In this document: positions 17,433 through 31,842 of the stretch, in pieces
Position numbering within the stretch: position 1 is the stretch's first letter
Layout: each line of letters starts with the position of its first letter
NCBI RefSeq assembly: GCF_000020225.1
Contig: NC_010655.1
Coordinates: 870,001-902,000, forward strand
Length of the DNA stretch: 32,000 nt
Source of the DNA: Akkermansia muciniphila ATCC BAA-835
GTDB lineage: Bacteria; Verrucomicrobiota; Verrucomicrobiia; Verrucomicrobiales; Akkermansiaceae
Reading direction: 5' to 3'
Translations under genes and position numbers: made by a program
The notes under the pieces: model-generated
Seen by the model: the letters and a program-made list of their open reading frames with translations, nothing else
What the model was told of the DNA's origin: nothing
Database searches by the model: none

Positions 17433-18458
17433 TCAGCGGCGCAGCAACCGGGCTCCCGCCTTGCGCATTTTCTTCCAGTAATAGGAAAAGTCCAAGCCGG
17501 ATTTTCCGCCCATCCAGGCTTTCAGTAATTTTCCTTCCCGGCGGGACAGGCAGGCATCATCCTCTGCGGGACGGTACAGATTTTCCTGACGGAGCATATC
17601 AGTCACCTTCCGGGTAACCTCCTTTTGGACGGCATGAGGGGCATATTTGCGGATGTTCCTCACGCCCATTACCAGCATTTTCAAAAATGCCGTCCTGTAT
17701 TCCTCAAGAATCCCGGCTTCTTTCCATTCCTTCAGCACCAGTTCCGCCACCGTCAGGTAATCCAGCGACTGGAGGGAACTGCCGGACGCAAAACCGCTGG
17801 TAATGGATCCGGCCCGCTTACGGTAAACGTAAGCCGCCCTGCTGACGACGCAAACCCTCCTGCACCATGGAAAAACGGCGTAATGGAAATACAGGTCTTC
17901 ACAGGCAACGCCCTCGGGGAACCGGATGCCATGCTTTTCCACAATGGAACGCCTGATCATCATGCCGCCCGCTCCATGATGTATTTTCCCAATGGTCTCC
18001 GGAGTGCAGGGAAGCCACCCTTTTTCCGGAGGGGCCATGTCCTCCGGCAGAAACCGGTCCTCCCGGTCCGGGGCGGACTCGTAATAATACCGGAACCCGC
18101 ATGCCAGCCTGTCGGCATCCAGCGCCTTCGCACGGCGGTACATCTCCTCCAGCAAATCCGTTTCCAGCCAGTCGTCGGAATCCACCAGAAACAGATATTC
18201 TCCCACAGCATGGCTCATCGCCAGATTCCGGGAGCGGGATAAGCCGCCGTTTTCCGGAGCCTGCACGACCTTCACCCGCGGGTCCCGCTCCGCGAATTCC
18301 CGCAGAATGGACAGGGAACCGTCCGTGGAAGCGTCATCCACGCAAACTATTTCCAGCTCACGGAGCGTCTGTGAGCAAATGCTTTCCAGGCACTGGGCCA
18401 GGTACGGCTCCACATTGTAAACCGGAACCAGCACGGAAATGTTTACGGGAGCCGTCAT
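17433..18458 (-). CDS. glycosyltransferase family 2
   Basis: 341 aa. ISVLVPVYNVEPYLAQCLESICSQT, VCVDDASTDGS and LVDSDD are present. Confidence 0.88.
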   Translation of the reverse strand: MTAPVNISVLVPVYNVEPYLAQCLESICSQTLRELEIVCVDDASTDGSLSILREFAERDPRVKVVQAPENGGLSRSRNLAMSHAVGEYLFLVDSDDWLETDLLEEMYRRAKALDADRLACGFRYYYESAPDREDRFLPEDMAPPEKGWLPCTPETIGKIHHGAGGMMIRRSIVEKHGIRFPEGVACEDLYFHYAVFPWCRRVCVVSRAAYVYRKRAGSITSGFASGSSLQSLDYLTVAELVLKEWKEAGILEEYRTAFLKMLVMGVRNIRKYAPHAVQKEVTRKVTDMLRQENLYRPAEDDACLSRREGKLLKAWMGGKSGLDFSYYWKKMRKAGARLLRR

Positions 18459-19429
18459 GAGCCATGCGGAGAATCTGCCGCCCTTATTTGTTCAAATCCT
18501 TCCTGCGGCGGCAGAAAGGGCTCCAGCGCGGACCATACCTGGTCCACTGTAATTTCCTCAATGGCGCCGGGGGAAACCAGGTTGGAAATGCACCGGGCAG
18601 TAATGGCGGAATTGCGCGTCCGGTGGCAGAAAATGGCGGTCACGGGCACCCCGGCATAGGCACACATATGTGTAGGCCCCGTATCATTGCCTACACAAGC
18701 CAGGGAACACAAAGCCATCTGGGGAATATCCATCAGGGAAGACTTGCCCAGAAAACTGACAGCCAGGGGAGAGCTGGCGGCAATGGCCTCCACTTCCGCA
18801 GCCTCCGCCCGGGTGCCGATGACAACGGAGGACACGCCCCGCGCCGCCAGGCGTTTCGCCAGGGCGCAGAAATTCTCCACGGGCCAGCGCTTGTAGGGAT
18901 GATTGGGGGAACAGCCCGGAATCATCATCACATAGCGTTCCGGAAGCTCGTCAAAATGCAGCCCCTCCCCGTGCATGAAAGAAAGATCCGTCAGGACGCG
19001 TTCCAAACGAAACGGCTCCCGTCCCACCTTCCCCCACCGGAAGGCTTTCTTTTTCAGCAATTTGCGCCGTTCTCCGGAATTGCAGGCCACCCAGTCCATG
19101 TCATGGTTCAGCAGGAAGCGCACGGCGGGATAATAGCGTTTCCTGGTGCGGGAAGATTCCTGAAGATCGTACACCACGTCAAAATTTCCTTTCACAATGG
19201 AACGGACGGCCCTCCAGGTGGCGCCCAGCTTCCAGTAAGGCAGGCGATTATCCACAATAAAATCGTCAAACACTCCGAGCTGCTCCGCCATGGGAACAAA
19301 CATTCCCATGGTCATCAGGGTGATATGCGCCTCCGGATGAAGTTCGCGGAGCCGCTTCATCGTCCCCATGGCGAGCACCACATCGCCAAGGGCTCCATGC
19401 TTGATGATCAGAATGCGCTGTGCGGGCAT
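18455..19429 (-). CDS. glycosyltransferase family 9 (ADP-heptose:LPS heptosyltransferase-like)
   Basis: 324 aa. RILIIKHGALGDVV at the N-terminus, PGCSPNHPYKRWP, and GNDTGPTHM. Its stop overlaps the GT2 start (ATGA at 18455-18458). Confidence 0.85.
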   Translation of the reverse strand: MPAQRILIIKHGALGDVVLAMGTMKRLRELHPEAHITLMTMGMFVPMAEQLGVFDDFIVDNRLPYWKLGATWRAVRSIVKGNFDVVYDLQESSRTRKRYYPAVRFLLNHDMDWVACNSGERRKLLKKKAFRWGKVGREPFRLERVLTDLSFMHGEGLHFDELPERYVMMIPGCSPNHPYKRWPVENFCALAKRLAARGVSSVVIGTRAEAAEVEAIAASSPLAVSFLGKSSLMDIPQMALCSLACVGNDTGPTHMCAYAGVPVTAIFCHRTRNSAITARCISNLVSPGAIEEITVDQVWSALEPFLPPQEGFEQIRAADSPHGS

Positions 19430-19450
19430 GGGAGAAAAAAGGAATGCGGG

Positions 19451-20437
19451 TTAAACGTAACTGTCTTCCCTGTCCAGATACTCCTGCACGTACCGGCGCA
19501 CGCCATCCTCCAGGGAAGTCATGGGCGCTGCATAACCGGCAACGCGCAGCCTGGAAAGGTCCGCCTGCGTATAATACTGATATTTCCCCCTGAGCTCTTC
19601 AGGCATCTCCCGGTAGGCAATCTTTTCCTGAAGGCCCAGCGCATGGAATGCCGCCTTCGCCAGATCGTGGAAAGAGCGTGCCTTCCCGGAACCTACGTTG
19701 AACAGGCCGCTCACCTCCGGATGCTCCAGCAGCCAAAGCACCACGTCCACGCAGTCGCCCACCCACACGAAATCCCGGAGCTGCCATCCGTCACGGTAGT
19801 CGGGATGGTAAGATTTGAACAGCTTCACCGTTTCATTGGCCTTCACTTGGGGGAATATATGGGCCACCACGCTTTTCTGCCCGCCCTTATGGTATTCATT
19901 AGGGCCGTACACGTTGAAAAATTTAAGCCCGGCGTATTGGGGGGGAACCGGACGCCCTTCTTTCACTTCCCGGGCCACCTTGCGGTCAAACAGGGCCTTG
20001 CTCCAGCCGTATGCGTTCAGGGGGCGCAGCGCATTGACGTGCTCCAGGGAGGCGTCATCGTCAAACCCCATGGAACCGTCCCCGTACGTGGCTGCGGAGG
20101 AGGCGTAAATAAACCGTTTGCCGTACAGGGAACAAAACTCCCACAAATGCCAGCTCAACGTGAAATTCGTCCGGATAATCAAATCGGCGTCCGTCTCCGT
20201 GGTGGCGGAAATGGCCCCCATGTGAATGACCGCCTCCACCTCATCCGCATGCGCCTTCATATAATCAAACATGCCTTCCGGAGAAACCACGGCGCACAGC
20301 TCTCTCTTGGCAATGTTCCTCCACTTGTCGGAAGAGCCCAGCTCGTCCACCACCACAAGATCCTTTTTACCGGCTTTTTCCAGAGCGGCGACAATGTTTG
20401 AGCCGATAAACCCGGCCCCACCCGTGACAATAATCAT
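19451..20437 (-). CDS. hldD: ADP-L-glycero-D-manno-heptose 6-epimerase
   Basis: MIIVTGGAGFIGSNIV..., ASSAATYG, FNVYGP.E.HKG and RDFVxVGD are collinear with E. coli HldD/RfaD as recalled. The start was taken at ATG 20435-20437; the track ORF adds 31 non-homologous residues. Confidence 0.9.
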   Translation of the reverse strand: MIIVTGGAGFIGSNIVAALEKAGKKDLVVVDELGSSDKWRNIAKRELCAVVSPEGMFDYMKAHADEVEAVIHMGAISATTETDADLIIRTNFTLSWHLWEFCSLYGKRFIYASSAATYGDGSMGFDDDASLEHVNALRPLNAYGWSKALFDRKVAREVKEGRPVPPQYAGLKFFNVYGPNEYHKGGQKSVVAHIFPQVKANETVKLFKSYHPDYRDGWQLRDFVWVGDCVDVVLWLLEHPEVSGLFNVGSGKARSFHDLAKAAFHALGLQEKIAYREMPEELRGKYQYYTQADLSRLRVAGYAAPMTSLEDGVRRYVQEYLDREDSYV

Positions 20438-20537
20438 AAGAAAAGAATCAATAAAAAAGTTGTACGGCCTTTTATACCACATCCACCCGTCCCTAGGCAA
20501 CTGCCATTTGAGGCGTTCCCCGGCTCCCAATTTTCAA

Positions 20538-20552
20538 CGAATTTACAATCCG
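20538..20552. repeat. palindrome copy S1: CGAATT-TAC-AATCCG
   Basis: Read directly. 11 of 12 arm positions match the CGGATT/AATCCG consensus. With its flanks it is a 16/17 inverted repeat of S2, including the core (TAC versus GTA). Confidence 0.9.
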
Positions 20553-20697
20553 GACACTCCAAACCCTGACCGTTCCATGCGGAAAACCATTGGGCCGCAA
20601 TCCCCGCGCAGCTTGCGGAGGGTGCGCCCCTCAAATCCTCTTTTCATACTGGCAACGTTAAAAAATTTCGGTAAGACCTGTCTTGCAAAAATTATCA

Positions 20698-20726
20698 TTG
20701 ACCACGGATTGTAAATCCGTTACACA
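20698..20726 (+). promoter_or_regulatory. putative sigma70-type promoter of the plus glycan arm, with palindrome S2 in the spacer
   Basis: TTGACC (20698-20703), a 17-nt spacer, then TACACA (20721-20726), 13 nt before the GT2 ATG. The CATTGAC ... TACAC pattern matches the two GT10 promoters. Motif inference only. Confidence 0.35.
20705..20719. repeat. palindrome copy S2: CGGATT-GTA-AATCCG (perfect arms)
   Basis: Read directly. It lies between the -35-like and -10-like boxes, 20 nt upstream of the GT2 start. Confidence 0.9.
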
Positions 20727-20739
20727 CATTCCCACCCCT

Positions 20740-21894
20740 ATGATCCCCGATGTTTCCATCATTGTTCCCTGCTACAATGTAGCCGCTTACGTGGACAGCT
20801 GCCTGGAGAGCCTGGTACGCCAGACTCTCCGGAACATAGAAATTATCTGCATCAATGACGGCTCCACGGATGAGACCTGGACACATCTGCTGCGCTGGAA
20901 AGAAAAGGACAGCAGAATCATCCTTCTGAACCAGCGGAACGCGGGCGTCTCCGCAGCAAGGAATGCAGGGCTGGATGCCGCCCGCGGCCTTTATGTCGGT
21001 TTTGCGGATCCGGACGACTACATGGATCCGGAAATGTATTCCCGCCTTTTTTCGGCGGCTCTGGAATATGACGCAGACATCGTGGAATGCGGCAACCATG
21101 TTTTTGAAGACTCGTCAGACCGGATTATCGAAGCCAAAAGAAGATCACCCTCCCGGCATTTTGAAGAGAACGCCTCTCCGGCCAGCTTCTTCCGGGATTC
21201 CATCTGGGGGAAAATGGATATCTGCGTGTGGAGCAAACTGTTCCGGAAAAGCATGCTGGACGCCCACCGCCTCCGCTTCAACGTACATCTGAAATCCGGC
21301 GCGGAGGATGAAACCTTCCGGCTGATGGCCGTTCCCCATGCCTCCCGTCTCCTGTTCATTCCCGACTGCCTGTATTACTACCGCCTTATGCGCAACGGCT
21401 CCCTCTCCCGCCGCTGCAACGTTCCCACCTACTCCAAATGCGTGCAGGAATTCCAGCGGCTGCTGTACATTGTGGACTACTGGCAGAAACAAGGATGGCA
21501 GAATGAAGGCCTGTTCGCTTACGGCGTCCGGAAAATCAGGCCTTTTTTTGTTTCCAAGCATCCCCTTTTCCATCAGATGACCGCTGTCCAGCAACGTTCC
21601 GCGCTGGACTGGTGGAGCCTGTTCTATCAGAAGGCGGAAGGAAAACGTTTCCTCTCCGCTCTATCGGGACGGGACAGGCAACTGGCGGACCTGTTGAACT
21701 CGGCGGAACCGGTCCCCAACGGCTGGGGGCGCATTCTGCTGGCAGCCTGCTCCCTGCTTCCCGGACAAAAAGGACGTTATTACTCCTGCAAAAAAATGCT
21801 TGCGGAACATTTTTCCCAAATCTGCCCCAATGAGTTTCAAAAAGAAAACGCTTCTCTGGAAGAGCCGTTTGACACATCGCCGCCTTCCCTGTAA
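20740..21894 (+). CDS. glycosyltransferase family 2 with C-terminal extension
   Basis: MIPDVSIIVPCYNVAAYVDSCLESLVRQT, ICINDGSTDET and FADPDD are present. The track start at 20683 is a TTG; ATG at 20740 gives the canonical GT2 N-terminus. Confidence 0.85.
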   Translation: MIPDVSIIVPCYNVAAYVDSCLESLVRQTLRNIEIICINDGSTDETWTHLLRWKEKDSRIILLNQRNAGVSAARNAGLDAARGLYVGFADPDDYMDPEMYSRLFSAALEYDADIVECGNHVFEDSSDRIIEAKRRSPSRHFEENASPASFFRDSIWGKMDICVWSKLFRKSMLDAHRLRFNVHLKSGAEDETFRLMAVPHASRLLFIPDCLYYYRLMRNGSLSRRCNVPTYSKCVQEFQRLLYIVDYWQKQGWQNEGLFAYGVRKIRPFFVSKHPLFHQMTAVQQRSALDWWSLFYQKAEGKRFLSALSGRDRQLADLLNSAEPVPNGWGRILLAACSLLPGQKGRYYSCKKMLAEHFSQICPNEFQKENASLEEPFDTSPPSL

Positions 21895-21921
21895 ATTGCC
21901 TTATCCTCCCATTCCGGATCA

Positions 21922-22728
21922 ATGAACCGTTTTCTCTCATTTGCAGACTCCCGCATGTCGGCCGCCCTGGAGCGGCTGGGCAGGCAGGCGGAAGCGCTGG
22001 ATTTTTTTGATGAGATCACGCTCTTCACGGAACACGACCTTTCCGCAGAATTCACCAGCCGCATGGGCCGCTACCTGACGCCGTCCTGCCGGGGATTCGG
22101 ATACTGGTCCTGGAAACCCTGGGCCATCCACCATGTCCTCCAAGAAATGGAAGAAGGAGACCGCCTCCTTTATCTGGATGCAGGCTGCCATATCAACGCC
22201 AACGGAACGGAGCGCTTCCGGGAATACGTAAATATGCTGGACCGCGACAGCCGCGGCATGCTGGTTTTCACCAACGGACAGCCGGAATACAAATGGACCA
22301 AAGGAGATATCTTCCGCCACTTCGGCATTTCCCAAGAAGACGGGCATATCACGCATACCCAGCAAATTGCGGGCGGCCATGTTTTCCTGAAAAAAAACCC
22401 GCTCACGGAAAGCCTGATCCGGGATTGGCTCCATGTCTTTTACGACCATCTGCATCTTGCGGACAACACTCCTTCCGCCTCCCCCAACCTGCCGGGTTTT
22501 GTGGAAAACCGGTATGACCAGAGCATCTTTTCCATCCTATGCAAACTGAGGGGCATCACCACCCTCGACGGATCGGAAACCTATGCGGAAAACTGGGAAC
22601 AGCTCTCCTTGTTTCCATTCCAGGACAGACGGGACATGGGAATCCCACGGGCCGGGAAAAAGGGATGGCTGGAAAAATGCAGGCAGCTCCTTCTTTCTTC
22701 CAAAAGAAACGGATTAGGAATCCGGTAA
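21922..22728 (+). CDS. uncharacterised protein embedded in the glycan locus (possible novel glycosyltransferase-like enzyme)
   Basis: 268 aa in the coding frame with host-like composition, 27 nt after the GT2 stop. Motifs GYWSWKPW, LLYLDAGC and ENRYDQSIFS are seen, but I cannot place them in a named family. Confidence 0.65.
   Translation: MNRFLSFADSRMSAALERLGRQAEALDFFDEITLFTEHDLSAEFTSRMGRYLTPSCRGFGYWSWKPWAIHHVLQEMEEGDRLLYLDAGCHINANGTERFREYVNMLDRDSRGMLVFTNGQPEYKWTKGDIFRHFGISQEDGHITHTQQIAGGHVFLKKNPLTESLIRDWLHVFYDHLHLADNTPSASPNLPGFVENRYDQSIFSILCKLRGITTLDGSETYAENWEQLSLFPFQDRRDMGIPRAGKKGWLEKCRQLLLSSKRNGLGIR
22710..22724. repeat. palindrome copy S3: CGGATT-AGG-AATCCG (perfect arms)
   Basis: Read directly. 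It overlaps the last codons of ORF 21922-22728 (stop at 22726-22728). It is a 14/15 inverted repeat of S4, including the core (AGG versus CCT). Confidence 0.9.
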
Positions 22729-23145
22729 AGCTTCCCCACTCGGAACAACCGGGCTGCACGACGTTTCCGGACGGGGCAATCTGACGCACCATGAACTGTT
22801 TTCCCGTCCTTTTCCACAGCTTCAGCCCGAAAATTCCTTTACCCTTCGGCTGCCGTTTCCGGAATGTAATGACGGTTATTTGGACAAGCTCTTTTCATTT
22901 GATCAGGAATGTTTTGCCTTCATGAAAGCAAACATCCCTCCATTCCAAAACTCCGCACCCGCACTATCCTCCGCCGACATTCTCCCACCCCTACTCACAG
23001 TTATGCCGTCACCGGAATCCGGCTTTCCCCCATTCATACCGGAATGAAAATAAAAAGGCCATCATGCTGGGAACAGCCTGCCGCAGTTCATGGAATACTG
23101 GCAGCCTAGATTTCCCCAAAACGTTTTTCTTTCAGATTTGTAGGC

Positions 23146-23175
23146 TTGACGGCGGATTCCTAATCCTCATACTTT
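23146..23175 (+). promoter_or_regulatory. putative promoter of the GT4 gene, with palindrome S4 in the spacer
   Basis: TTGACG (23146-23151), an 18-nt spacer, then TACTTT (23170-23175). This is the same layout as at S2. Motif inference only. Confidence 0.3.
23153..23167. repeat. palindrome copy S4: CGGATT-CCT-AATCCT
   Basis: Read directly. 11 of 12 arm positions match. It ends 13 nt upstream of the in-frame GTG at 23181. Confidence 0.9.
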
Positions 23176-23180
23176 CCTAT

Positions 23181-24455
23181 GTGGCTTCTCCTCAATGCCG
23201 AACAATATTTCAAGTCTCCCATAGCGTCTCGGCCAGCTCCGCCCCTTACCGGTTGAGCGACGCTCTGAACCGGCATATTCCCGGCCTAAAATCCACCCTG
23301 CTGCTCCGGAGGCGCAAAGAAATTGACGGCCTGGAAATCCACAGGACACCCGCCAGAAGGGCTACGGACGCCTTGCGCCGCCATCTGGCCCATGGATTTG
23401 ACATTCTGCTGCCGGAAAGAAGAAAAGACCTGCCTTTCTCCCTGAATGTGCTGGGCATGGGATTTGACACGGCCCAAATGGAAAAAGCCGATGTAGTGCA
23501 TCTGCACTGGATAGGCGGCAGAACCGTGGATTTCTCGCAGCTGTGCCATATCCGCCGTCCATTGGTCTATACCCTGCACGACATGTTTGCCTGCACCGCG
23601 GGATGCCACTGCACCATGGACTGCGGCCTGTTCCAGGACGAATGCCGCGGCAACTGCCCCCAGCTTGGCGCTCCCCGCCTCTTCCGCAACATTCCAGCGT
23701 GGCTGTTTTCCCGCAAACGCCGCGCCTTCGGCCGCATCCCGTCCCTTACCCTCGTAACTCCCTCCCTCTGGTTAAAAAGGGAAGTGGAAAGAAGCTGCAT
23801 GTTCCCTGGAAGAAAAATCGTACAGATTTACAATCCTGTGGACACGGACCTTTTCCGTCCGGCGGAAGACCGGAATGCCATCCGGGCCGGCCTGGGCATC
23901 CCGCCCGGAGCGTTCGTCATCGCCTGCGGCGCAACCGGCCTGTTCAATCCGGTCAAAGGCGGCCATTTCATCCCCCTGGTGCTGGAGGAACTATACCGGC
24001 GCGGGCACCGGAACCTTCATCTCCTGCTCTTCGGCAACCAGGAAAAAAGCGTGGACTACCCCTTCCCCAGCACAAACGCCGGATTCATTACGGACATGAA
24101 CAAGCTGGCCGGGCTTTACAGCGCGGCGGACATTTTCCTGAACCCCACGCTTCAGGATGTCCTTTCCAACGTAGCGCTGGAATCCATGGCCTGCAAAACC
24201 CCTTCCGTTACCTTCCGGACGGGAGGAGTTCCGGAAGCGGTTCTGGACGGAAGGACGGGGCTGGTCGCTCAGCAGGGGGACCTGAACCAAATGGTCGCCC
24301 ACTGCGAACGGCTCATCCAGGACGGAAAACTCCTGCAAACCCTGGCGGAGGAAGGCCGTCGGCACGCGGAACAAACATTCTCCTACCCCGTCATTGCCGC
24401 ACGGCACGCCGCCCTGTATGAGGAAACGTTCCGGGAATACCGTTACGAAGAGTGA
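23181..24455 (+). CDS. glycosyltransferase family 4 (GT-B, GT1 clan)
   Basis: IFQVSHS...APYRL at the N-terminus, VVHLHWIGG ... LVYTLHDMFACTAGCHCTMDC ... CPQLG, and a C-terminal E-x7-E-like region (NVALESMACKTPSV). The residues between the ATG at 23064 and 23181 look non-protein-like. The GTG at 23181 places the start 8 residues before the conserved IFQVSHS. The start is uncertain. Confidence 0.85.
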   Translation: MASPQCRTIFQVSHSVSASSAPYRLSDALNRHIPGLKSTLLLRRRKEIDGLEIHRTPARRATDALRRHLAHGFDILLPERRKDLPFSLNVLGMGFDTAQMEKADVVHLHWIGGRTVDFSQLCHIRRPLVYTLHDMFACTAGCHCTMDCGLFQDECRGNCPQLGAPRLFRNIPAWLFSRKRRAFGRIPSLTLVTPSLWLKREVERSCMFPGRKIVQIYNPVDTDLFRPAEDRNAIRAGLGIPPGAFVIACGATGLFNPVKGGHFIPLVLEELYRRGHRNLHLLLFGNQEKSVDYPFPSTNAGFITDMNKLAGLYSAADIFLNPTLQDVLSNVALESMACKTPSVTFRTGGVPEAVLDGRTGLVAQQGDLNQMVAHCERLIQDGKLLQTLAEEGRRHAEQTFSYPVIAARHAALYEETFREYRYEE

Positions 24456-24520
24456 AAACGGCCGGCGTTCAACCGCCGGACTGCCTGTTCCAGCACATCC
24501 GGGCGCATTTTCCTTTGTCA

Positions 24521-24548
24521 TTGACAAGAAAAAGACGCCTCATACACT
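24521..24548 (+). promoter_or_regulatory. putative promoter of the FutA-like GT10 gene
   Basis: TTGACA (24521-24526), a 16-nt spacer, then TACACT (24543-24548), 27 nt before the ATG. It is embedded in an 18-nt block that is 17/18 identical to the block at 27757-27774. The -35 box is part of the palindrome TTGTCA-T-TGACAA (24515-24527). Confidence 0.45.
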
Positions 24549-24575
24549 CTGCACCGTTTCAACCCTTCTCTCCCC

Positions 24576-25574
24576 ATGAAAACGCTTAAAATCTCCTTTT
24601 TACAGTCCACTCCGGATTTCGGCAGGGAAGGAATGCTTCAGCTTCTGAAAAGCCGGTATCATGTGGTGGAAGACGATTCCGATTTTGATTACCTGGTCGC
24701 CACCCCCTGGTTTTACGTCAACCGGGAGGCTTTTTACGATTTTCTGGAACGGGCCCCCGGCCATATCACCGTCATGTACGGCTGTCATGAAGCCATTGCA
24801 CCGGATTTCATGCTGTTTGACTATTACATCGGGCTCGATACGGTGCCCGGAAGCGACCGTACTGTCAAACTTCCCTACCTTCGCCACCATTTGGAAGAAG
24901 TGCACGGCGGTAAGGAAGGCCTGGATGCCCATGCTCTCCTGGCCTCCAAAACGGGTTTCTGCAACTTCATTTACGCCAACCGCAAATCCCATCCCAACAG
25001 GGATGCCATGTTCCACAAACTCTCCGCTTTCCGGTTCGTCAATTCTCTGGGGCCCCATCTTAACAACACCCCGGGCGACGGCCACCGGGCGGAAGACTGG
25101 TACGCATCCTCCATCAGAATGAAAAAGCCGTATAAATTCTCCATTGCCTTTGAAAATGCATGGTACCCCGGCTACACCAGTGAAAAAATCGTCACCAGCA
25201 TGCTTGCAGGCACCATTCCCATTTACTGGGGAAATCCGGACATCAGCCGGGAATTCAATTCCGCCTCATTCATCAACTGCCACGACTTCCCAACCCTGGA
25301 CGACGCCGCGGCCTATGTGAAAAAAGTGGACGAAGACGACAACCTGTGGTGTGAAATCATGTCGCGCCCCTGGAAAACCCCGGAACAGGAAGCCCGCTTT
25401 CTGGAAGAGACGGAAAGGGAAACGGCCAAGCTTTACAAAATATTCGACCAATCTCCGGAAGAAGCGCGCCGCAAAGGTGACGGAACATGGGTATCCTACT
25501 ACCAGCGCTTTTTAAAACGCGGCCACAGGATGCAGCTGGCATGGCGGCGGCTGAAAAACCGCCTGCGCCGCTAA
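24576..25574 (+). CDS. alpha-(1,3)-fucosyltransferase, glycosyltransferase family 10 (H. pylori FutA-like)
   Basis: 332 aa. LFDYYIGLD, YKFSIAFENAWYPGYTSEKIVTSMLAGTIPIYWGNPDISREFNSASFINCHDF aligns with H. pylori FutA YKFNLCFENSQGYGYVTEKILDAYFSHTIPIYWGSPSVAKDFNPKSFVNVHDF as recalled. It lacks the H. pylori heptad tail and any poly-C tract. Confidence 0.92.
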   Translation: MKTLKISFLQSTPDFGREGMLQLLKSRYHVVEDDSDFDYLVATPWFYVNREAFYDFLERAPGHITVMYGCHEAIAPDFMLFDYYIGLDTVPGSDRTVKLPYLRHHLEEVHGGKEGLDAHALLASKTGFCNFIYANRKSHPNRDAMFHKLSAFRFVNSLGPHLNNTPGDGHRAEDWYASSIRMKKPYKFSIAFENAWYPGYTSEKIVTSMLAGTIPIYWGNPDISREFNSASFINCHDFPTLDDAAAYVKKVDEDDNLWCEIMSRPWKTPEQEARFLEETERETAKLYKIFDQSPEEARRKGDGTWVSYYQRFLKRGHRMQLAWRRLKNRLRR

Positions 25575-25655
25575 CCAACGTTTCCGGGCAATTCAACCCC
25601 ATGCCGGATTTCCTCTGCCCGCCTTCCCCCGTCCCCATCCACTTCCTTCCGCTTC

Positions 25656-27728
25656 ATGAGCAAATTCTTTTCTGAAACCTTTTGTTCACCTTCTCCCCAC
25701 CAAGCCGGAGGCGCCATCCACGGAACCTATTTCCCGCACATTGACGGCCTGCGTACTTTTGCCGTGCTGGCCGTCGTCCTGTACCATTTGCAGGAAGGGA
25801 TCTGCCCTGGAGGCTATGCAGGCGTGGACATCTTCTTTGTCATCTCCGGATATCTGATTGGCGGAGGCCTCATCCGTAGCCTGAAGGAGGGAACGTTCTC
25901 CCTGACCTCCTTTTACCTCCGGAGAATCAGGCGCATCATGCCCGCCTACTTCTGCCTGATTGCGGCCGTGCTGGCTTTCGGCTGCGTCGTTCTGGACTGC
26001 GATGACCTGCGGACTCTGGGCCGGACGGTGAGATCCAGCGCCCTTTTCATCACCAACACGTACTTCAGCAGAACCACAGGGGATTACTTCAGCCCGGCGG
26101 CGGAAGAAAACCCTTTGCTGAACCTGTGGTCCCTGAGCGTGGAAGAACAATTTTACCTGATGATTCCGCTTACCCTGTGGCTGCTCTGGAAATTCAGGGA
26201 AAAAGCCGTCAAACCCGTTCTATGGGGGGCGCTGGGCCTCTCCTTCTTCGCCGCCGCCTTCCACATGGGGCATCTGGAACATAACAAGGCCTTCTATCTG
26301 CTTTACTGCCGCGCCTGGGAACTTCTGGCCGGCTGCCTTCTGGCTCTGGCTCCCGCCGCAGAACAGAACCGGGGAACCGGATGGCTGCGGACGGCGGGAT
26401 GGGCCGGAATCCTGCTCCCCTTTGCCTGTTATACCTCTTCCACTCCTTTTCCCGGATACACGGCCATCCCTTCCATCGCGGGGGCGGCCCTGCTTATCCG
26501 TTACGGAAACCATGGCTGGTCCGGGCGTATCCTCAGGCACCCGCTCAGCACGGGCATCGGCAAAATCTCCTACTCCCTCTATTTGTGGCATTGGCCAGTT
26601 ATCGTGTACTGGACATACGTCTGTTTCGATGAATGCTCTCCCTGGGATTATGCGGGCATGTTCCTTCTCTCCCTTCTTCTGGGTTTCCTTTCCTGGAAAT
26701 TCGTGGAAACCCCCTTCAGAACGACCGTCTCATGGCAAACTCCCGGAAAAGCGTTTCTGGCCACGGCAGCAGGGTGCCTCATGCTGGGATTTGCCGGTGA
26801 ATGGCTCAAATGGACGGACGGCGCGCGGGATTACTGGCATGTAGCGGCCAACAGCATGGAATTCCCTGAATACTGGAAAGGGCCGGCCTTCCCGCCCTCC
26901 TTCGGCATCACGCCTCCCAGCCGGGCGGTGGTGGAAAAGGGCAACGCCATTCAGCACCATCATCCGGAGCTGGGGGATGTGACGGATTACCCTTTTGTCC
27001 TGCTGGGAAAAAACGGGCAGGCCCCTTCCTTCCTGCTTATGGGGGACAGCCATGCCATGGCCAGTTCCCCCGGATTTGACGAGGCCGCGCGGCTTCTTCA
27101 GCGCTCGGGCCTGTTCTACCGCGCGCGCCTGTGTCCGCTGAGCGGCATCTCCGGCTCCGGAGACTCCTCTTCCCTGACGCTCCTGCGCCTGATGTACCCC
27201 CATTGGGAACACAATATGGAACTAATTCTGGACTGGCTGGAAAATACCCCCCAGGTAAAGACCGTATTCATCCACAACCGCTGGATTGAACTGGTGAACA
27301 ATCACCGGGATACGCGCCTGAAACAACTGGTTGCAGACGGCCTGCGCCACACCTGTGCGCGTCTTCGGAAAGCCGGCAAGCAAATCGTGCTGCTGGGTCC
27401 CGTTCCCGAATGGACTTTCGGCCCGCGCAAGCTCATGCGGCGCAATGCCCTGCTGAACGCCAACCGGACAGACCGCCTGCTGGGCGGGGACTTCAACACG
27501 CGGCAGCGTCCGGTATTCGCCCTGTTGGAGCACATGGAATCCACAGGCCTGTGCCGCTTCATTCCCCTCCACGGCACCTTCCATAAAAATGGGCGGTGGC
27601 TGGCGGAAGACAGCGGCCAATTAATGTACTGCGACGACAATCACCTTTCCCCCTACGGGTCCAGAAAAATGGTCGGCGACATCATCGACCAGCTTTTCCC
27701 GGGAATGGAAAGAACAGCAGCCAACTGA
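25656..27728 (+). CDS. acyltransferase family 3 (OafA-like) fused to a C-terminal SGNH domain; glycan O-acetyltransferase
   Basis: 690 aa. FPHIDGLRTFAVLAVVLYH and FFVISGYL, then about 10 TM segments. The C-terminal domain has LLMGDSHA and CDDNHLS (SGNH blocks I and V). Confidence 0.9.
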   Translation: MSKFFSETFCSPSPHQAGGAIHGTYFPHIDGLRTFAVLAVVLYHLQEGICPGGYAGVDIFFVISGYLIGGGLIRSLKEGTFSLTSFYLRRIRRIMPAYFCLIAAVLAFGCVVLDCDDLRTLGRTVRSSALFITNTYFSRTTGDYFSPAAEENPLLNLWSLSVEEQFYLMIPLTLWLLWKFREKAVKPVLWGALGLSFFAAAFHMGHLEHNKAFYLLYCRAWELLAGCLLALAPAAEQNRGTGWLRTAGWAGILLPFACYTSSTPFPGYTAIPSIAGAALLIRYGNHGWSGRILRHPLSTGIGKISYSLYLWHWPVIVYWTYVCFDECSPWDYAGMFLLSLLLGFLSWKFVETPFRTTVSWQTPGKAFLATAAGCLMLGFAGEWLKWTDGARDYWHVAANSMEFPEYWKGPAFPPSFGITPPSRAVVEKGNAIQHHHPELGDVTDYPFVLLGKNGQAPSFLLMGDSHAMASSPGFDEAARLLQRSGLFYRARLCPLSGISGSGDSSSLTLLRLMYPHWEHNMELILDWLENTPQVKTVFIHNRWIELVNNHRDTRLKQLVADGLRHTCARLRKAGKQIVLLGPVPEWTFGPRKLMRRNALLNANRTDRLLGGDFNTRQRPVFALLEHMESTGLCRFIPLHGTFHKNGRWLAEDSGQLMYCDDNHLSPYGSRKMVGDIIDQLFPGMERTAAN

Positions 27729-27766
27729 CGGAAGCTCCGCACGGAAAAACATCCAATCCTTTGACA

Positions 27767-27794
27767 TTGACAAGGCATGCAGGCCCCCTACACT
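27767..27794 (+). promoter_or_regulatory. putative promoter of the second GT10-like gene
   Basis: TTGACA (27767-27772), a 16-nt spacer, then TACACT (27789-27794). The spacing and -10 box are the same as at 24521-24548. It is preceded by a second TTGACA in tandem (27761-27766). The leader is about 90 nt. Confidence 0.45.
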
Positions 27795-27887
27795 GGCGCC
27801 AGGCAGTAAAGCCTTCGCGATGGTCCCGGATAAAAGCCCGGAATATGAAGGCCATACCGCGTCCCCCTATTCAACGCCTGTACTCCC

Positions 27888-28919
27888 ATGACGGATTCCT
27901 CCCGCCCCACACGCATCAAGGTCATCAGAAAATCCATGAAGGCCTCTCCGGATCAAACGGAATCCCTGTTGTGGGGCGACTGCCTGTTCTGCACGGACGC
28001 CGCCATGACGGATTACGACTGGGTTCTGGTATACGACGAATTTCCCAGAACTCCCGTGGGCACCATCAGGAATGAAACGGAACCCCTTCTCTGTCCTCCG
28101 GACCAGACTATCCTGATTACGGTGGAGCCCCCCTCCATCAAAATCTACAGCAGGGCATACACCAGCCAATTCGGCACCGTTCTCACCACCCACTCCATCC
28201 GGGACCTTCCGCACCCCGGGCACACCTTGGGCCGCGGATGTCTTGAATGGCTGTACATCAAGCCCATGCAGGAAATTCTGGACCAGAAGGAATTCCCGAA
28301 GACAAAAATGCTCTCCACCATCTGCTCCGCCAAGCAGCATACGCATACCATGCATAAAAAGCGCTATGATCTTACGCGTTACCTGGCGGACCGTCTGCCG
28401 GAACTGGACTGGTTCGGACACGGCATCCGGGAAATAGAAAATAAAACCGTCGCCATGGATGACTACAAATATCATCTATGCGTGGAAAACCATCTGGAAC
28501 CCCACCATTGGACGGAAAAACTGTCTGATGCCTTTGTTGCCATGACCCTTCCCTTTTACGCCGGGGATCCGTTGGCAACGGAATGCTTCCCGCAGGAAAG
28601 CTTCATCCCCATCCCGCTGGACAACCCGCAAAAAGCCCTTGAAATCATCCGCAAGGCCATGGAGGACGGAGAATATGAAAAACGGCTCCCCGCCATCCGT
28701 GAGGCAAGGCGCCTGGTGCTGGAAAAATACAACATGTTCGCTCAAACAGCGGCAGTCATTCACAACCACAGGGAAACGGGAACCATACGCCCCGGAGCCA
28801 TGCTGAAAGGACGCCACGTTCTGCGGAAAAATCCGCTCCATGCCCTTCGGGAATTGACGGACACGCTGGCCTATAAAATCAGGTCGCGCGGCAGGCGCGG
28901 AACCGGAACCGGAGCATAA
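27888..28919 (+). CDS. glycosyltransferase family 10-like protein (divergent fucosyltransferase)
   Basis: 343 aa. YKYHLCVENHLEPHHWTEKLSDAFVAMTLPFYAGDP fits the GT10 core motif (ENxxxxxY/WxTEK ... IP.YxG). The rest of the protein is divergent from the upstream FutA-like protein. Confidence 0.72.
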   Translation: MTDSSRPTRIKVIRKSMKASPDQTESLLWGDCLFCTDAAMTDYDWVLVYDEFPRTPVGTIRNETEPLLCPPDQTILITVEPPSIKIYSRAYTSQFGTVLTTHSIRDLPHPGHTLGRGCLEWLYIKPMQEILDQKEFPKTKMLSTICSAKQHTHTMHKKRYDLTRYLADRLPELDWFGHGIREIENKTVAMDDYKYHLCVENHLEPHHWTEKLSDAFVAMTLPFYAGDPLATECFPQESFIPIPLDNPQKALEIIRKAMEDGEYEKRLPAIREARRLVLEKYNMFAQTAAVIHNHRETGTIRPGAMLKGRHVLRKNPLHALRELTDTLAYKIRSRGRRGTGTGA

Positions 28920-31756: not shown

Positions 31757-31842
31757 TGGTGGGTAGAGAAGGATTCGAACCTTCGAAAGCAAATGCTAAC
31801 AGATTTACAGTCTGCCCCCTTTGACCGCTCGGGAATCTACCC
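31757..31842 (-). tRNA. tRNA-Tyr (anticodon GTA), class II with long variable arm, CCA encoded
   Basis: The reverse complement reads GGGTAGATTCCCGAGCGGTCAAAGGGGGCAGACTGTAAATCTGTTAGCATTTGCTTTCGAAGGTTCGAATCCTTCTCTACCCACCA. It has a 7-bp acceptor stem, anticodon loop CTGTAAA, T-arm GAAGGTTCGAATCCTTC, and close similarity to E. coli tRNA-Tyr as recalled. Confidence 0.93.

What the first reader, a model, noticed from the sequence alone, without database searches (positions are those of the whole stretch)
22710..23175. Second palindrome pair with its own matched core brackets a 428-bp non-coding gap inside the glycosyltransferase operon
S3 (22710-22724, CGGATT-AGG-AATCCG) overlaps the last codons of the unknown ORF. 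S4 (23153-23167, CGGATT-CCT-AATCCT) lies 13 nt before the GT4 GTG start. S3 equals the reverse complement of S4 at 14 of 15 positions, including the core (AGG versus CCT). This pair therefore has a core different from the S1/S2 pair but again matched in inverted orientation. The chance of a core match is about 1/64 per pair. As at S2, S4 sits between a -35-like TTGACG (inside the bracketed segment) and a -10-like TACTTT (outside it). The enclosed 22725-23152 has no convincing ORF in any frame, which is unusual in an otherwise tightly packed operon. Pair-specific cores are what one expects if each pair recombines only with its partner. Simple operator duplication does not predict them. If real, the GT4, FutA-like, O-acetyltransferase and GT10-like genes could be switched independently of the upstream GT2 and unknown ORF.
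Basis: partly seen in the sequence, partly recalled or inferred. Interest (0 to 1): 0.74.

Follow-up and report, generated by a model that had tools for sequence, protein, structure and literature searches.

The report
Invertible promoter switch for Akkermansia glycan genes
The two short palindromes bracket a 456-bp DNA segment in the gut bacterium Akkermansia muciniphila that public assemblies show in both orientations; it belongs to a known class of Akkermansia switches and probably turns a block of surface-sugar genes (fucosyl- and acetyl-transferases) on and off.

Summary
S3 (22710-22724) and S4 (23153-23167) match the published Akkermansia inverton repeat motif CGGATT..AATCCG. Public assemblies carry window 22711-23166 flipped exactly at the two sites. 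One contig is 100% identical to the window over 11.4 kb apart from the flip. The protein predicted for the flipped state is indexed in 388 collection blocks against 3596 for the native state, about 10%.

The switch is conserved at this position in at least four Akkermansia lineages. The 3-nt cores differ between them (AGG/CCT, TGA/TCA, TGG/CCA) but always match within a pair.

Across 45 non-redundant Akkermansia invertons, an A/T-rich block plus TTGAC lies just inside one repeat. The repeat fills the promoter spacer, and a TAnnnT-type -10 lies outside it. Here the native orientation joins TTGACG to CATACT/TACTTT just upstream of the GT4 GTG start, which I read as ON. Inversion removes the -35, which I read as OFF. 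The ON/OFF reading is inferred, not measured.

No recombinase gene lies in the window. Tyrosine recombinase genes abut same-motif invertons in four related genomes.

This is a new, uncharacterised member of a known kind. The same locus also has an S2xS5 inversion that splits the GT4 gene.

The parts
22710..22724 (.). S3, left inverted repeat / recombination site (CGGATT-AGG-AATCCG). It overlaps the last six codons of the upstream ORF.
   Evidence: Sequence. Inversion breakpoint 22711-22724 in L008, L129-L132 and L140-L145.
23153..23167 (.). S4, right inverted repeat / recombination site (CGGATT-CCT-AATCCT). It forms the spacer of the promoter.
   Evidence: Sequence. Inversion breakpoint 23153-23166 in the same loci.
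22725..23152 (.). Interior of the invertible segment, 428 bp. It is non-coding by all tests and unusually long for the family, whose median site-to-site distance is about 170.
   Evidence: No Pfam or Rfam hits. No RNA structure signal. Family size distribution. Orthologous segments are 168-169 bp site-to-site in two other species.
23115..23151 (+). Conserved promoter-upstream block: an A/T-rich UP-like stretch plus the -35 TTGACG (23146-23151). It lies inside the segment and travels with it.
   Evidence: It is the only long invariant run in the interior between A. muciniphila and an 88%-identity relative, and the rest of the interior aligns poorly. The family consensus is t.aaAtTTT....TTGAC..CGGATT. 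The validated cps1 inverton has the same layout.
23168..23175 (+). -10-like element outside the segment (CATACT 23168-73 or TACTTT 23170-75). It stays with the GT4 gene.
   Evidence: Promoter scan found TTGACG-16-CATACT. The sequence is conserved as CATACT(T/C)TCCTATGTG in three other species. Family-wide, TA is enriched at the matching position.
23181..24455 (+). GT4-family glycosyltransferase, the first gene of the switched module. It starts at GTG 5-7 nt after the -10, so the mRNA would be leaderless or nearly so.
   Evidence: Pfam. The 424-aa GTG-start form is the ATCC BAA-835 annotation ACD04595.1/WP_012419810.1. The start position is equivalent in L135.
24576..28919 (+). Co-directional downstream genes presumed to be co-switched: GT10 fucosyltransferase (24576-25574), AT3+SGNH O-acyltransferase (25656-27728) and a GT10-like gene (27888-28919).
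   Evidence: Pfam. Co-orientation with short gaps. Co-transcription is inferred.
21922..22728 (+). Upstream ORF of unknown function, 268 aa. Inversion extends it by 29 aa to 297 aa.
   Evidence: In-silico inversion. The exact 297-aa product is on 215 public contigs and in 388 collection blocks.
23046..23079 (-). Weak terminator-like hairpin plus T-run on the minus strand. After inversion it would face read-through from the upstream genes.
   Evidence: Terminator scan. The fold is -16.3 kcal/mol for the 71-nt context and is not better than shuffles. Low confidence.
23823..23837 (.). S5, a third site with the S1/S2 core (CAGATT-TAC-AATCCT) inside GT4 (codons QIYNP). It is the partner of S2 in a 3.1-kb inversion that also carries the S3/S4 switch.
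   Evidence: L006 has window 20699-23841 inverted. Its products are on many contigs.
20538..20719 (.). S1 (20538-20552) and S2 (20705-20719), the neighbouring inverton upstream of GT2. S2 has the same TTGAC-NN-site-TACACA layout.

Best explanation
S3 and S4 are the two recombination sites of a site-specific DNA inversion switch (an inverton) of the Akkermansia CGGATT-N3-AATCCG class.

A trans-acting recombinase encoded outside the window binds the 6-bp palindromic arms. It is most likely a tyrosine recombinase. It exchanges strands in or around the asymmetric 3-nt core, and this flips 22711-23166.

The segment carries the upstream half of a sigma-70-type promoter: an A/T-rich block plus the -35 TTGACG, butted against S4. 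S4 itself is the promoter spacer. The -10 (CATACT/TACTTT) and the GTG start of GT4 stay fixed outside the segment.

In the orientation of the window, which is the majority state, the promoter is complete. The GT4 - GT10 fucosyltransferase - O-acyltransferase - GT10-like module is then transcribed (ON).

After inversion the -35 points into the 3' end of the upstream ORF, where no -10 follows. GT4 is left with a -10 but no -35, and a weak terminator-like hairpin now faces upstream read-through (OFF).

The likely output is phase-variable decoration of a surface glycan, probably the lipooligosaccharide, with fucose and acetyl groups.

Shown here: the sites, the inversion, its exact breakpoints, its frequency in assemblies and its conservation. 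Inferred: promoter function, the ON/OFF assignment, co-transcription, the recombinase type and the glycan phenotype.
For: Inversion is real:
- L008 has window 22711-23166 inverted between collinear flanks.
- L129-L132 have the same breakpoints.
- L140 has 0 mismatches to the window over 4640 + 456 + 6303 bp apart from the flip. L145 has 1 mismatch.
- The repeat is only 14 bp, shorter than assembler k-mers, so misassembly is unlikely (inference).

Frequency:
- The flipped-state 297-aa product is in 388 blocks against 3596 for the native product.
- For the identical GT4 allele, 55 contigs are flipped and 950 are native.

Family membership:
- The motif CGGATT..AATCCG is the published Akkermansia repeat motif, and the cps1 inverton that carries it was shown experimentally to flip.
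- A cps1 qPCR primer shows the same TTGAC-NN-CGGATT layout.

Family architecture:
- 47 of 52 TTGAC-bearing sites have a partner with the reverse-complement core. In 46 of those 47 the TTGAC lies inside the segment.
- TA sits at +2/+3 outside the site in 35 of 90 flanks against a 2.9% background, p = 4e-30. This position is exactly 17 nt from TTGACn.
- Flanks with a -10-like element abut an outward-facing ORF in 33 of 37 cases, against 25 of 45 for other flanks, p = 0.0013.

This locus:
- TTGACG-16-CATACT is one of only two sigma-70-like matches in 3.6 kb.
- The 37 bp next to S4 is the only conserved part of the interior between species.
- L133 and L134 are orthologous switches caught in opposite orientations with different, matched cores.

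Recombinase:
- PF00589 tyrosine recombinase genes start 15-24 nt outside a repeat of same-motif invertons in L013, L078, L114 and L122.

Phenotype link:
- MucT lipooligosaccharide contains fucose, acetylated fucose and heterogeneous glycoforms (PMC11436972).
Against: - No transcription data were available, so the promoter, the transcription start and the ON/OFF assignment rest on consensus, spacing and conservation.
- The -10 is offset by one base from the family's modal position: 16- or 18-nt spacer instead of 17.
- Read-through from the upstream S2-associated promoter could keep GT4 expressed in either orientation. The proposed OFF-state terminator is weak and not better than shuffled sequence.
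- No read-level data show both orientations within one clonal culture for this locus.
- No recombinase gene is in the window.
- No A. muciniphila-sized cluster appeared among the top 120 homologues of the candidate recombinases.
- The extra ~275 bp of interior relative to other species is unexplained.
Confidence: 0.75

Rival explanations
1. The two orientations are an old, fixed structural polymorphism between strains. It arose by rare recombination at a short inverted repeat and is not an actively switching phase-variation element.
For: I had no read-level data. Every orientation call comes from consensus assemblies, one state per contig. The first inverted contigs fetched (L008, L129-L132) are 96-98.5% identical to the window, so they are different strains.
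Against: L140 is 100% identical to the window over 11.4 kb yet inverted, and L145 differs by 1 base. The identical GT4 allele occurs in both states, 55 against 950 contigs. Sister species are caught in opposite states. Repeats of the same motif flip in culture and in mice (PMC13343947, PMC11892184). The cores co-vary and the arms stay intact over species-level divergence, which implies selection on the sites.
Confidence: 0.07
2. The inversion is real, but its main effect is on coding sequence rather than on a promoter. It swaps the C-terminus of the upstream ORF (268 or 297 aa) and the N-terminus of GT4 (463 or 456 aa).
For: Both alternative products are predicted and are called by gene finders on hundreds of contigs. 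Partially intragenic invertons are a described category (PMC10028968).
Against: The GT4 fold begins at ...IFQVSHS just after GTG 23181. The type-strain annotation and a distant orthologue with an ATG at the equivalent place both start there, so the N-terminal extensions look like gene-caller artefacts. The 29-aa tail has no family match and is not conserved between species: P0010 has a different tail. The only conserved interior block is the TTGAC-proximal 37 bp, not a reading frame.
Confidence: 0.08
3. The palindromes are operators for a dimeric transcription factor that sits in the promoter spacer, and the inversions are incidental.
For: Perfect 6-3-6 palindromes between a -35 and a -10 are typical repressor sites. 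S3 and S4 would both bind the same protein.
Against: S3 sits at the 3' end of a gene with no promoter. Breakpoints of all 11 inverted loci examined (L008, L129-L132, L140-L145) fall inside the 14-bp sites. Cores are matched in inverted orientation in 47 of 47 pairs, which an operator model does not predict. The bound recombinase may still also act as a repressor, so the two ideas are not exclusive.
Confidence: 0.03

Closest known systems
Akkermansia muciniphila cps1 inverton and the genome-wide Akkermansia inverton class (repeat motif CGGATT..AATCCG of Jiang et al. 2019; 'group 138' of PMC11892184; PMC13343947)
   Same: The repeat motif is the same. The A/T-rich-TTGAC-NN-CGGATT layout is the same. 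No recombinase is encoded next to it. Both control surface-glycan genes, and both orientations are seen in natural samples.
   Different: This one lies at a different locus: a GT9/GT2/GT8/GT4/GT10 cluster resembling lipooligosaccharide-core genes at about 0.89 Mb, not cps1 at 2.53 Mb. It sits inside a co-directional gene row and overlaps a stop codon. Its interior is 428 bp, against about 150 bp for the family. It is nested inside a second, larger inversion (S2xS5). I found no description of it in the searchable literature. The published inverton tables could not be read.
Bacteroides fragilis invertible polysaccharide promoters (Mpi serine recombinase; Krinos 2001, Coyne 2003, as cited)
   Same: Many short invertible promoter segments are scattered over the genome. 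They are flipped by a recombinase encoded elsewhere and give ON/OFF control of surface-polysaccharide loci in a gut commensal.
   Different: The repeat sequence and promoter type differ. In Bacteroides the whole promoter lies inside the segment (my own knowledge). Here the -35 is inside, the repeat is the spacer and the -10 is outside (inferred). The candidate recombinase here is a tyrosine type, not a serine type.
E. coli fimS switch (FimB/FimE tyrosine recombinases)
   Same: A short segment bounded by short inverted repeats carries promoter function and gives ON/OFF control of a surface structure. Tyrosine recombinases do the flipping.
   Different: fimS has 9-bp repeats, adjacent recombinase genes and a complete internal promoter (my own knowledge). 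Here the recombinase is not adjacent and the promoter appears to be split by the repeat.
Helicobacter pylori Lewis-antigen phase variation (futA/futB GT10 fucosyltransferases)
   Same: The functional outcome would be the same: stochastic ON/OFF of GT10 fucosyltransferases that decorate LPS with host-like fucosylated epitopes.
   Different: H. pylori uses slipped-strand mispairing in homopolymeric tracts inside the genes (my own knowledge), not DNA inversion of a promoter.
Shufflons and multiple-inversion systems (R64 Rci; Mycoplasma vsa/hsd)
   Same: Several related sites within a few kb allow alternative inversions. Here S1xS2 is presumed, S2xS5 is observed and S3xS4 is observed. One of them cuts a coding sequence.
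   Different: Partner choice here appears to be limited by core identity (GTA/TAC against AGG/CCT). No S3/S4 cross-recombination with S1/S2/S5 was seen. No array of alternative coding cassettes is present.

Membership tests
Akkermansia CGGATT-N3-AATCCG invertons | A pair of sites matching the published repeat motif, in inverted orientation | tested here: met
   S3 matches 15 of 15 and S4 matches 14 of 15 positions, with cores AGG and CCT. The motif is as quoted in PMC13343947.
Akkermansia CGGATT-N3-AATCCG invertons | Both orientations exist in sequence data, with breakpoints at the repeats | tested here: met
   L008, L129-L132 and L140-L145 are inverted at 22711-22724 / 23153-23166. L001-L005 and L007 are native at S3/S4, and L006 carries the S2xS5 inversion. 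The block ratio is 388 flipped to 3596 native.
Akkermansia CGGATT-N3-AATCCG invertons | Promoter motif (A/T-rich block + TTGAC) inside the segment next to one repeat | tested here: met
   TTGACG lies at 23146-23151, 1 nt from S4. The layout is the same in 46 of 47 paired family members. The block is conserved across species.
Akkermansia CGGATT-N3-AATCCG invertons | Reversible switching within a clonal population | not testable with these tools
   No read data were available. The nearest proxy is L140, which is 100% identical to the window apart from the flip.
Akkermansia CGGATT-N3-AATCCG invertons | Orientation changes expression of the adjacent genes | not testable with these tools
   This is inferred only from the -35/-10 geometry.
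Tyrosine-recombinase inversion switches (fimS-like) | Inversion is catalysed by a tyrosine recombinase | tested here: inconclusive
   None is in the window. PF00589 genes abut same-motif invertons in L013, L078, L114 and L122. No clear A. muciniphila orthologue was found. A dyad axis on the middle base of an odd-length core fits a 7-bp overlap better than the 2-bp stagger of serine recombinases (inference).
Hin/Gin-type serine invertase systems | The invertase gene lies within or next to the segment, with ~26-bp sites and a 2-bp crossover core | tested here: not met
   There is no resolvase-like ORF in the segment or the window. The sites are 15-bp palindromes with a 3-nt core.
Shufflon / multiple-inversion system | Any site can recombine with several others, giving many permutations | tested here: inconclusive
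   S2 recombines with S5, with which it shares a core. No S3/S4 exchange with sites of a different core was seen in about 25 loci of this region, but no targeted search was made.

The most novel reading that the evidence does not exclude
In Akkermansia the recombination site itself may serve as the 17-nt spacer of a sigma-70-type promoter. The UP-like element and the -35 would ride on the invertible segment. The -10 and a near-leaderless start codon would stay with the gene, so inversion would dismantle the promoter rather than turn it round.

The odd-length 3-nt core can never be its own reverse complement, so it always gives the site a direction. It seems free to drift as long as both partners change together (AGG/CCT, TGA/TCA, TGG/CCA at this one locus). 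This would give dozens of switches private partner specificity under one trans-acting tyrosine recombinase.

At this locus such switches are nested (S3xS4 inside S2xS5). Together they could generate several lipooligosaccharide glycoforms that differ in fucosylation and acetylation, in a bacterium being developed as a therapeutic.
Probability: 0.4. Interest if true: 0.7.

Novelty: new member of a known kind. Interest (0 to 1): 0.5.

Why it matters
A. muciniphila is a leading next-generation probiotic candidate. Its lipooligosaccharide is immunologically active, fucosylated, acetylated and heterogeneous (PMC11436972). The only Akkermansia inverton I found characterised in detail is the cps1 capsule switch (PMC13343947).

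If S3/S4 toggles the GT4, fucosyltransferase and O-acyltransferase module, clonal cultures and production batches would be mixtures of surface glycoforms. The mix could shift in the host. That would be relevant to host lectin and TLR recognition, to phage susceptibility and to strain-to-strain inconsistency.

The family-level observations would be useful design rules for finding and phase-locking these switches. They are the repeat acting as promoter spacer, the co-varying cores, and recombinase genes abutting invertons in relatives.

Tried and rejected
- Structured RNA or riboswitch in the gap: rejected. Rfam gave nothing at gathering score and only a chance-level hit (E = 0.9) at the permissive threshold. 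Fold z-scores were +0.5 and +0.9.
- Decayed gene or hidden ORF in the gap: no Pfam match for five interior ORFs or frames. The 107-codon open frame is read through in a few frameshifted strains (P0004, P0007). Homologues outside Akkermansia are about 260-300 aa, so it is not an ancestral C-terminus. The open frame sits in a C-rich, G-poor stretch with GC skew down to -0.61, where stop codons are rare.
- Recombinase gene in the window: none found.
- A. muciniphila orthologue of the candidate tyrosine recombinase: not recognisable among the top 120 hits of two searches.
- Whether this inverton is already listed in published catalogues: could not be checked. Jiang et al. 2019 is not held. The CSV tables of PMC11892184 and the supplements of PMC10028968 are not held.
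- Inverted junction of the neighbouring S1xS2 segment: not found in any of the 139 loci held at the time.
- OFF-state intrinsic terminator: a hairpin plus T-run exists, but it is weak and not better than shuffled sequence. I kept it only as a low-confidence feature.
- Misassembly as the source of the inversions: rejected. The repeat is 14 bp, and the flip recurs with identical breakpoints in contigs from ENA, Logan, NCBI and JGI.
Full report
**Identity of the window.**
A locus from GCA_045257715.1 (CP174100.1, 2.66 Mb) is 100% identical to window 17922-26728. The upstream ORF and the GT4 protein are ACD04594.1 and ACD04595.1 of Akkermansia muciniphila ATCC BAA-835.

The neighbourhood is a glycan-synthesis cluster. 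On the minus strand lie GT8, GT2, a GT9 heptosyltransferase-like gene and an epimerase. On the plus strand lie GT2 (20683/20740-21894), an unknown 268-aa ORF (21922-22728), GT4 (23181-24455), a GT10 fucosyltransferase (24576-25574), an AT3+SGNH O-acyltransferase (25656-27728) and a second GT10-like gene (27888-28919). It is not the cps1 capsule locus, which is amuc_2077-2098 at 2.53 Mb.

**Observation.**
S3 (22710-22724, CGGATTAGGAATCCG) and S4 (23153-23167, CGGATTCCTAATCCT) are as described. Exact CGGATTNNNAATCC occurs at three sites in the window against 0.10 strand-matches expected, and no shuffle reached the observed count.

The other members are S1 (20538-20552) and S2 (20705-20719).

**The segment really inverts.**
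A scan of JGI metagenome contigs for the junction predicted for the flipped state found ULRO01080418.1 (L008). In it, window 22711-23166 is inverted between collinear flanks.

I then built the flipped sequence in silico and looked up its predicted products by exact sequence:
- The 297-aa form of the upstream ORF is on 215 public contigs. A second allele is on 124.
- The 456-aa gene-caller form of GT4 is on 55 contigs for the window allele and on 77 for a second allele.
- The native 268-aa and 463-aa forms are on at least 1000 and on 950 contigs.

The 297-aa form is indexed in 388 blocks of the collection, against 3596 for the native form, which is 9.7%. For the identical GT4 allele the flipped fraction is 5.5%.

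Ten further inverted contigs all have the same breakpoints. L140 is 100% identical to the window over 4640 + 456 + 6303 bp apart from the flip, and L145 differs by one base. So the type-strain sequence itself exists in both orientations. A 14-bp repeat is too short to mislead assemblers (inference).

**It belongs to a known class.**
The motif CGGATT..AATCCG is quoted as the Akkermansia inverton repeat motif of Jiang et al. 2019. It was used to find the cps1 inverton, which was shown experimentally to flip in culture, in mice and in humans (PMC13343947). An independent study grouped 32 A. muciniphila BAA-835 invertons with this motif, found a promoter-like motif in them, and linked no invertase to them (PMC11892184). 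I could not read the published coordinate tables. Whether this particular pair is already listed is therefore unknown. I found no description of it in the searchable text.

**Family architecture.**
Of these, 47 were from Akkermansia or Akkermansiaceae.

- In those loci plus the window, 47 of 52 TTGAC-bearing sites have a partner with the reverse-complement core. In 46 of the 47 the TTGAC lies inside the bracketed segment. The median site-to-site distance is about 170, and S3/S4 at 443 is among the longest.
- There are more than 20 different cores, and the two cores are matched in every pair. One genome reuses CAA in at least 11 invertons, so cores are not always private to a pair.
- The consensus, read from inside to outside, is t.aaAtTTT....TTGAC..CGGATTnnnAATCCG.
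- Immediately outside the site, TA occupies +2/+3 in 35 of 90 flanks against a 2.9% background (p = 4e-30). That is exactly where a -10 sits at 17-nt spacing from TTGACn.
- Flanks with this -10-like element abut an outward-facing ORF in 33 of 37 cases, against 25 of 45 for other flanks (p = 0.0013).
- The same inverton is seen in opposite orientations in two species, L065 and L066.
- A cps1 qPCR primer (TAAGGGATTACTATTGACACCG) shows the same layout.

I read this as a promoter split by the recombination site. The UP-like element and the -35 are mobile, the repeat is the spacer, and the -10 is fixed. This is an inference from sequence statistics, not from transcription data.

**This locus.**
TTGACG (23146-23151) followed by S4 and then CATACT/TACTTT (23168-23175) is one of only two sigma-70-like matches in 3.6 kb. 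GTG 23181 follows 5-7 nt later.

The type-strain annotation starts GT4 there. A distant orthologue has an ATG at the equivalent position. The transcript would therefore be leaderless or nearly so (inference).

After inversion the -35 faces TTTCTTTTGG at the end of the upstream ORF, where there is no -10. GT4 then has CTTTAC where the -35 should be.

A weak hairpin plus T-run (minus strand, 23079-23046) would then face upstream read-through. It is not better than shuffled sequence.

The interior has no Pfam or Rfam match and no structure signal.

**Comparative evidence.**
Orthologous loci keep the gene order. The percentages below are the identity of the upstream ORF to the query.

| Locus | Identity | S3 / S4 cores | Site-to-site distance | State |
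|---|---|---|---|---|
| L139 | 88% | AGG / CCT | 443 | TTGAC next to S4 |
| L133 | 85% | TGA / TCA | 169 | TTGAC next to S4 |
| L134 | 83% | TGG / CCA | 168 | TTGAC next to S3 (flipped) |
| L135 | 74% | decayed sites | - | no intact pair |
| L137 | 67% | no sites | - | lacks GT4 |

The arms and the outer flanks (CATACTTTCCTATGTG) are conserved, while the cores change in concert.

Between A. muciniphila and L139 the interior aligns poorly, except for an invariant block at 23115-23151, which is the UP-like stretch plus TTGACG. This is the footprint expected of a promoter half carried by the segment.

**Recombinase.**
None is encoded in the window. In four related genomes (L013, L078, L114, L122) a PF00589 tyrosine recombinase gene starts 15-24 nt outside a repeat of a same-motif inverton. 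The four proteins are 41-60% identical to one another.

No cluster with A. muciniphila-like membership appeared among the top hits. The A. muciniphila enzyme remains unidentified.

**Likely output.**
MucT lipooligosaccharide carries fucose, a specifically acetylated fucose and two glycoforms with marked heterogeneity (PMC11436972). The switched module encodes two GT10-type enzymes and an O-acyltransferase. A link between the two is plausible but untested.

**Verdict.**
The inversion interpretation is supported by direct sequence evidence. The regulatory mechanism is inferred with moderate confidence. The element is a new, uncharacterised member of a known class.

Noticed in passing
window 20699-23841 (S2 20705-20719 x S5 23823-23837); L006: A second, larger inversion of 3.1 kb flips GT2, the unknown ORF, the whole S3/S4 switch and the 5' part of GT4. 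It splits GT4 at QIYNP|VD. Its products are common in public assemblies. The 205-aa C-terminal piece, P0182 (WP_349097541.1), is on 99 contigs. The 311-aa and 307-aa N-terminal pieces are on 6 and 121 contigs. This is an intragenic inverton nested around the finding.
   Followed up: partly
window 20538-20719 (S1/S2): The neighbouring 167-bp inverton lies between the divergent epimerase and GT2 genes. It has the same layout: TTGACC, then the site, then TACACA, then the GT2 ATG at 20740. Its S1-side flank reads TTGAAAAT, a possible alternative -10 towards the epimerase. No inverted example was found among the 139 loci held at the time.
   Followed up: partly
L013 5503-6735; L078 6143-7272; L114 1406-2658; L122 360-1469: Tyrosine recombinase genes (PF00589, 41-60% identical to one another) start 15-24 nt outside a repeat of CGGATT-N3-AATCCG invertons in four Akkermansiaceae or Verrucomicrobiales genomes. 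They are candidate invertases, possibly phase-variable themselves.
   Followed up: partly
L043, L046, L056, L076, L082, L087, L113, L128 (Akkermansiaceae bacterium U.3_4): At least 11 near-identical 180-bp invertons in one genome all use the same core, CAA/TTG. Both of their flanks carry -10-like boxes (cTATGCT / cCATGCA). Cores are therefore not always pair-specific, and exchange between different invertons would be possible there.
   Followed up: no
L065 5578-5760 versus L066 3809-3991: The same inverton (core TGC) is present in opposite orientations in the representative genomes of two Akkermansia species.
   Followed up: no
P0016, P0017, P0034, P0004, P0007, P0058, P0067, P0039 (variants of window ORF 21922-22728): Public assemblies hold many damaged forms of the unknown ORF. 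Some are frameshifts. Some are 1-nt frameshifts at S3 that read through the gap to give 374 aa. Some are in-frame fusions of its N-terminal part to GT4, which implies deletions of 1-2 kb. One is an internal duplication (P0001).
   Followed up: no
L016, L022, L037, L042, L048, L053, L070, L077, L079, L080, L106, L107, L111 (Prevotella/Segatella); L018, L019, L085, L086: An unrelated repeated element has the form ggttaggacatttt-TTGAC-nn-CGGATT-(g/t/a)ca-AATCCG-nn-ggaacgcctaacgg. It recurs in Prevotella/Segatella and a few other gut MAGs and matched my search pattern. Its nature is unknown.
   Followed up: no
window 22900-23060: This part of the invertible interior is strongly C-rich and G-poor on the plus strand, with GC skew down to -0.61. 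The composition resembles a Rho-utilisation site for untranslated read-through RNA in the native orientation. This is speculative.
   Followed up: no
cluster 1: The 297-aa flipped-state protein is filed in a 90%-identity cluster whose other members are CstA carbon-starvation proteins of about 490 aa. This is presumably a clustering artefact through a chimeric representative.
   Followed up: no
window 31760-31842 (-): A tRNA gene is the only Rfam match at gathering score in the window.
   Followed up: no
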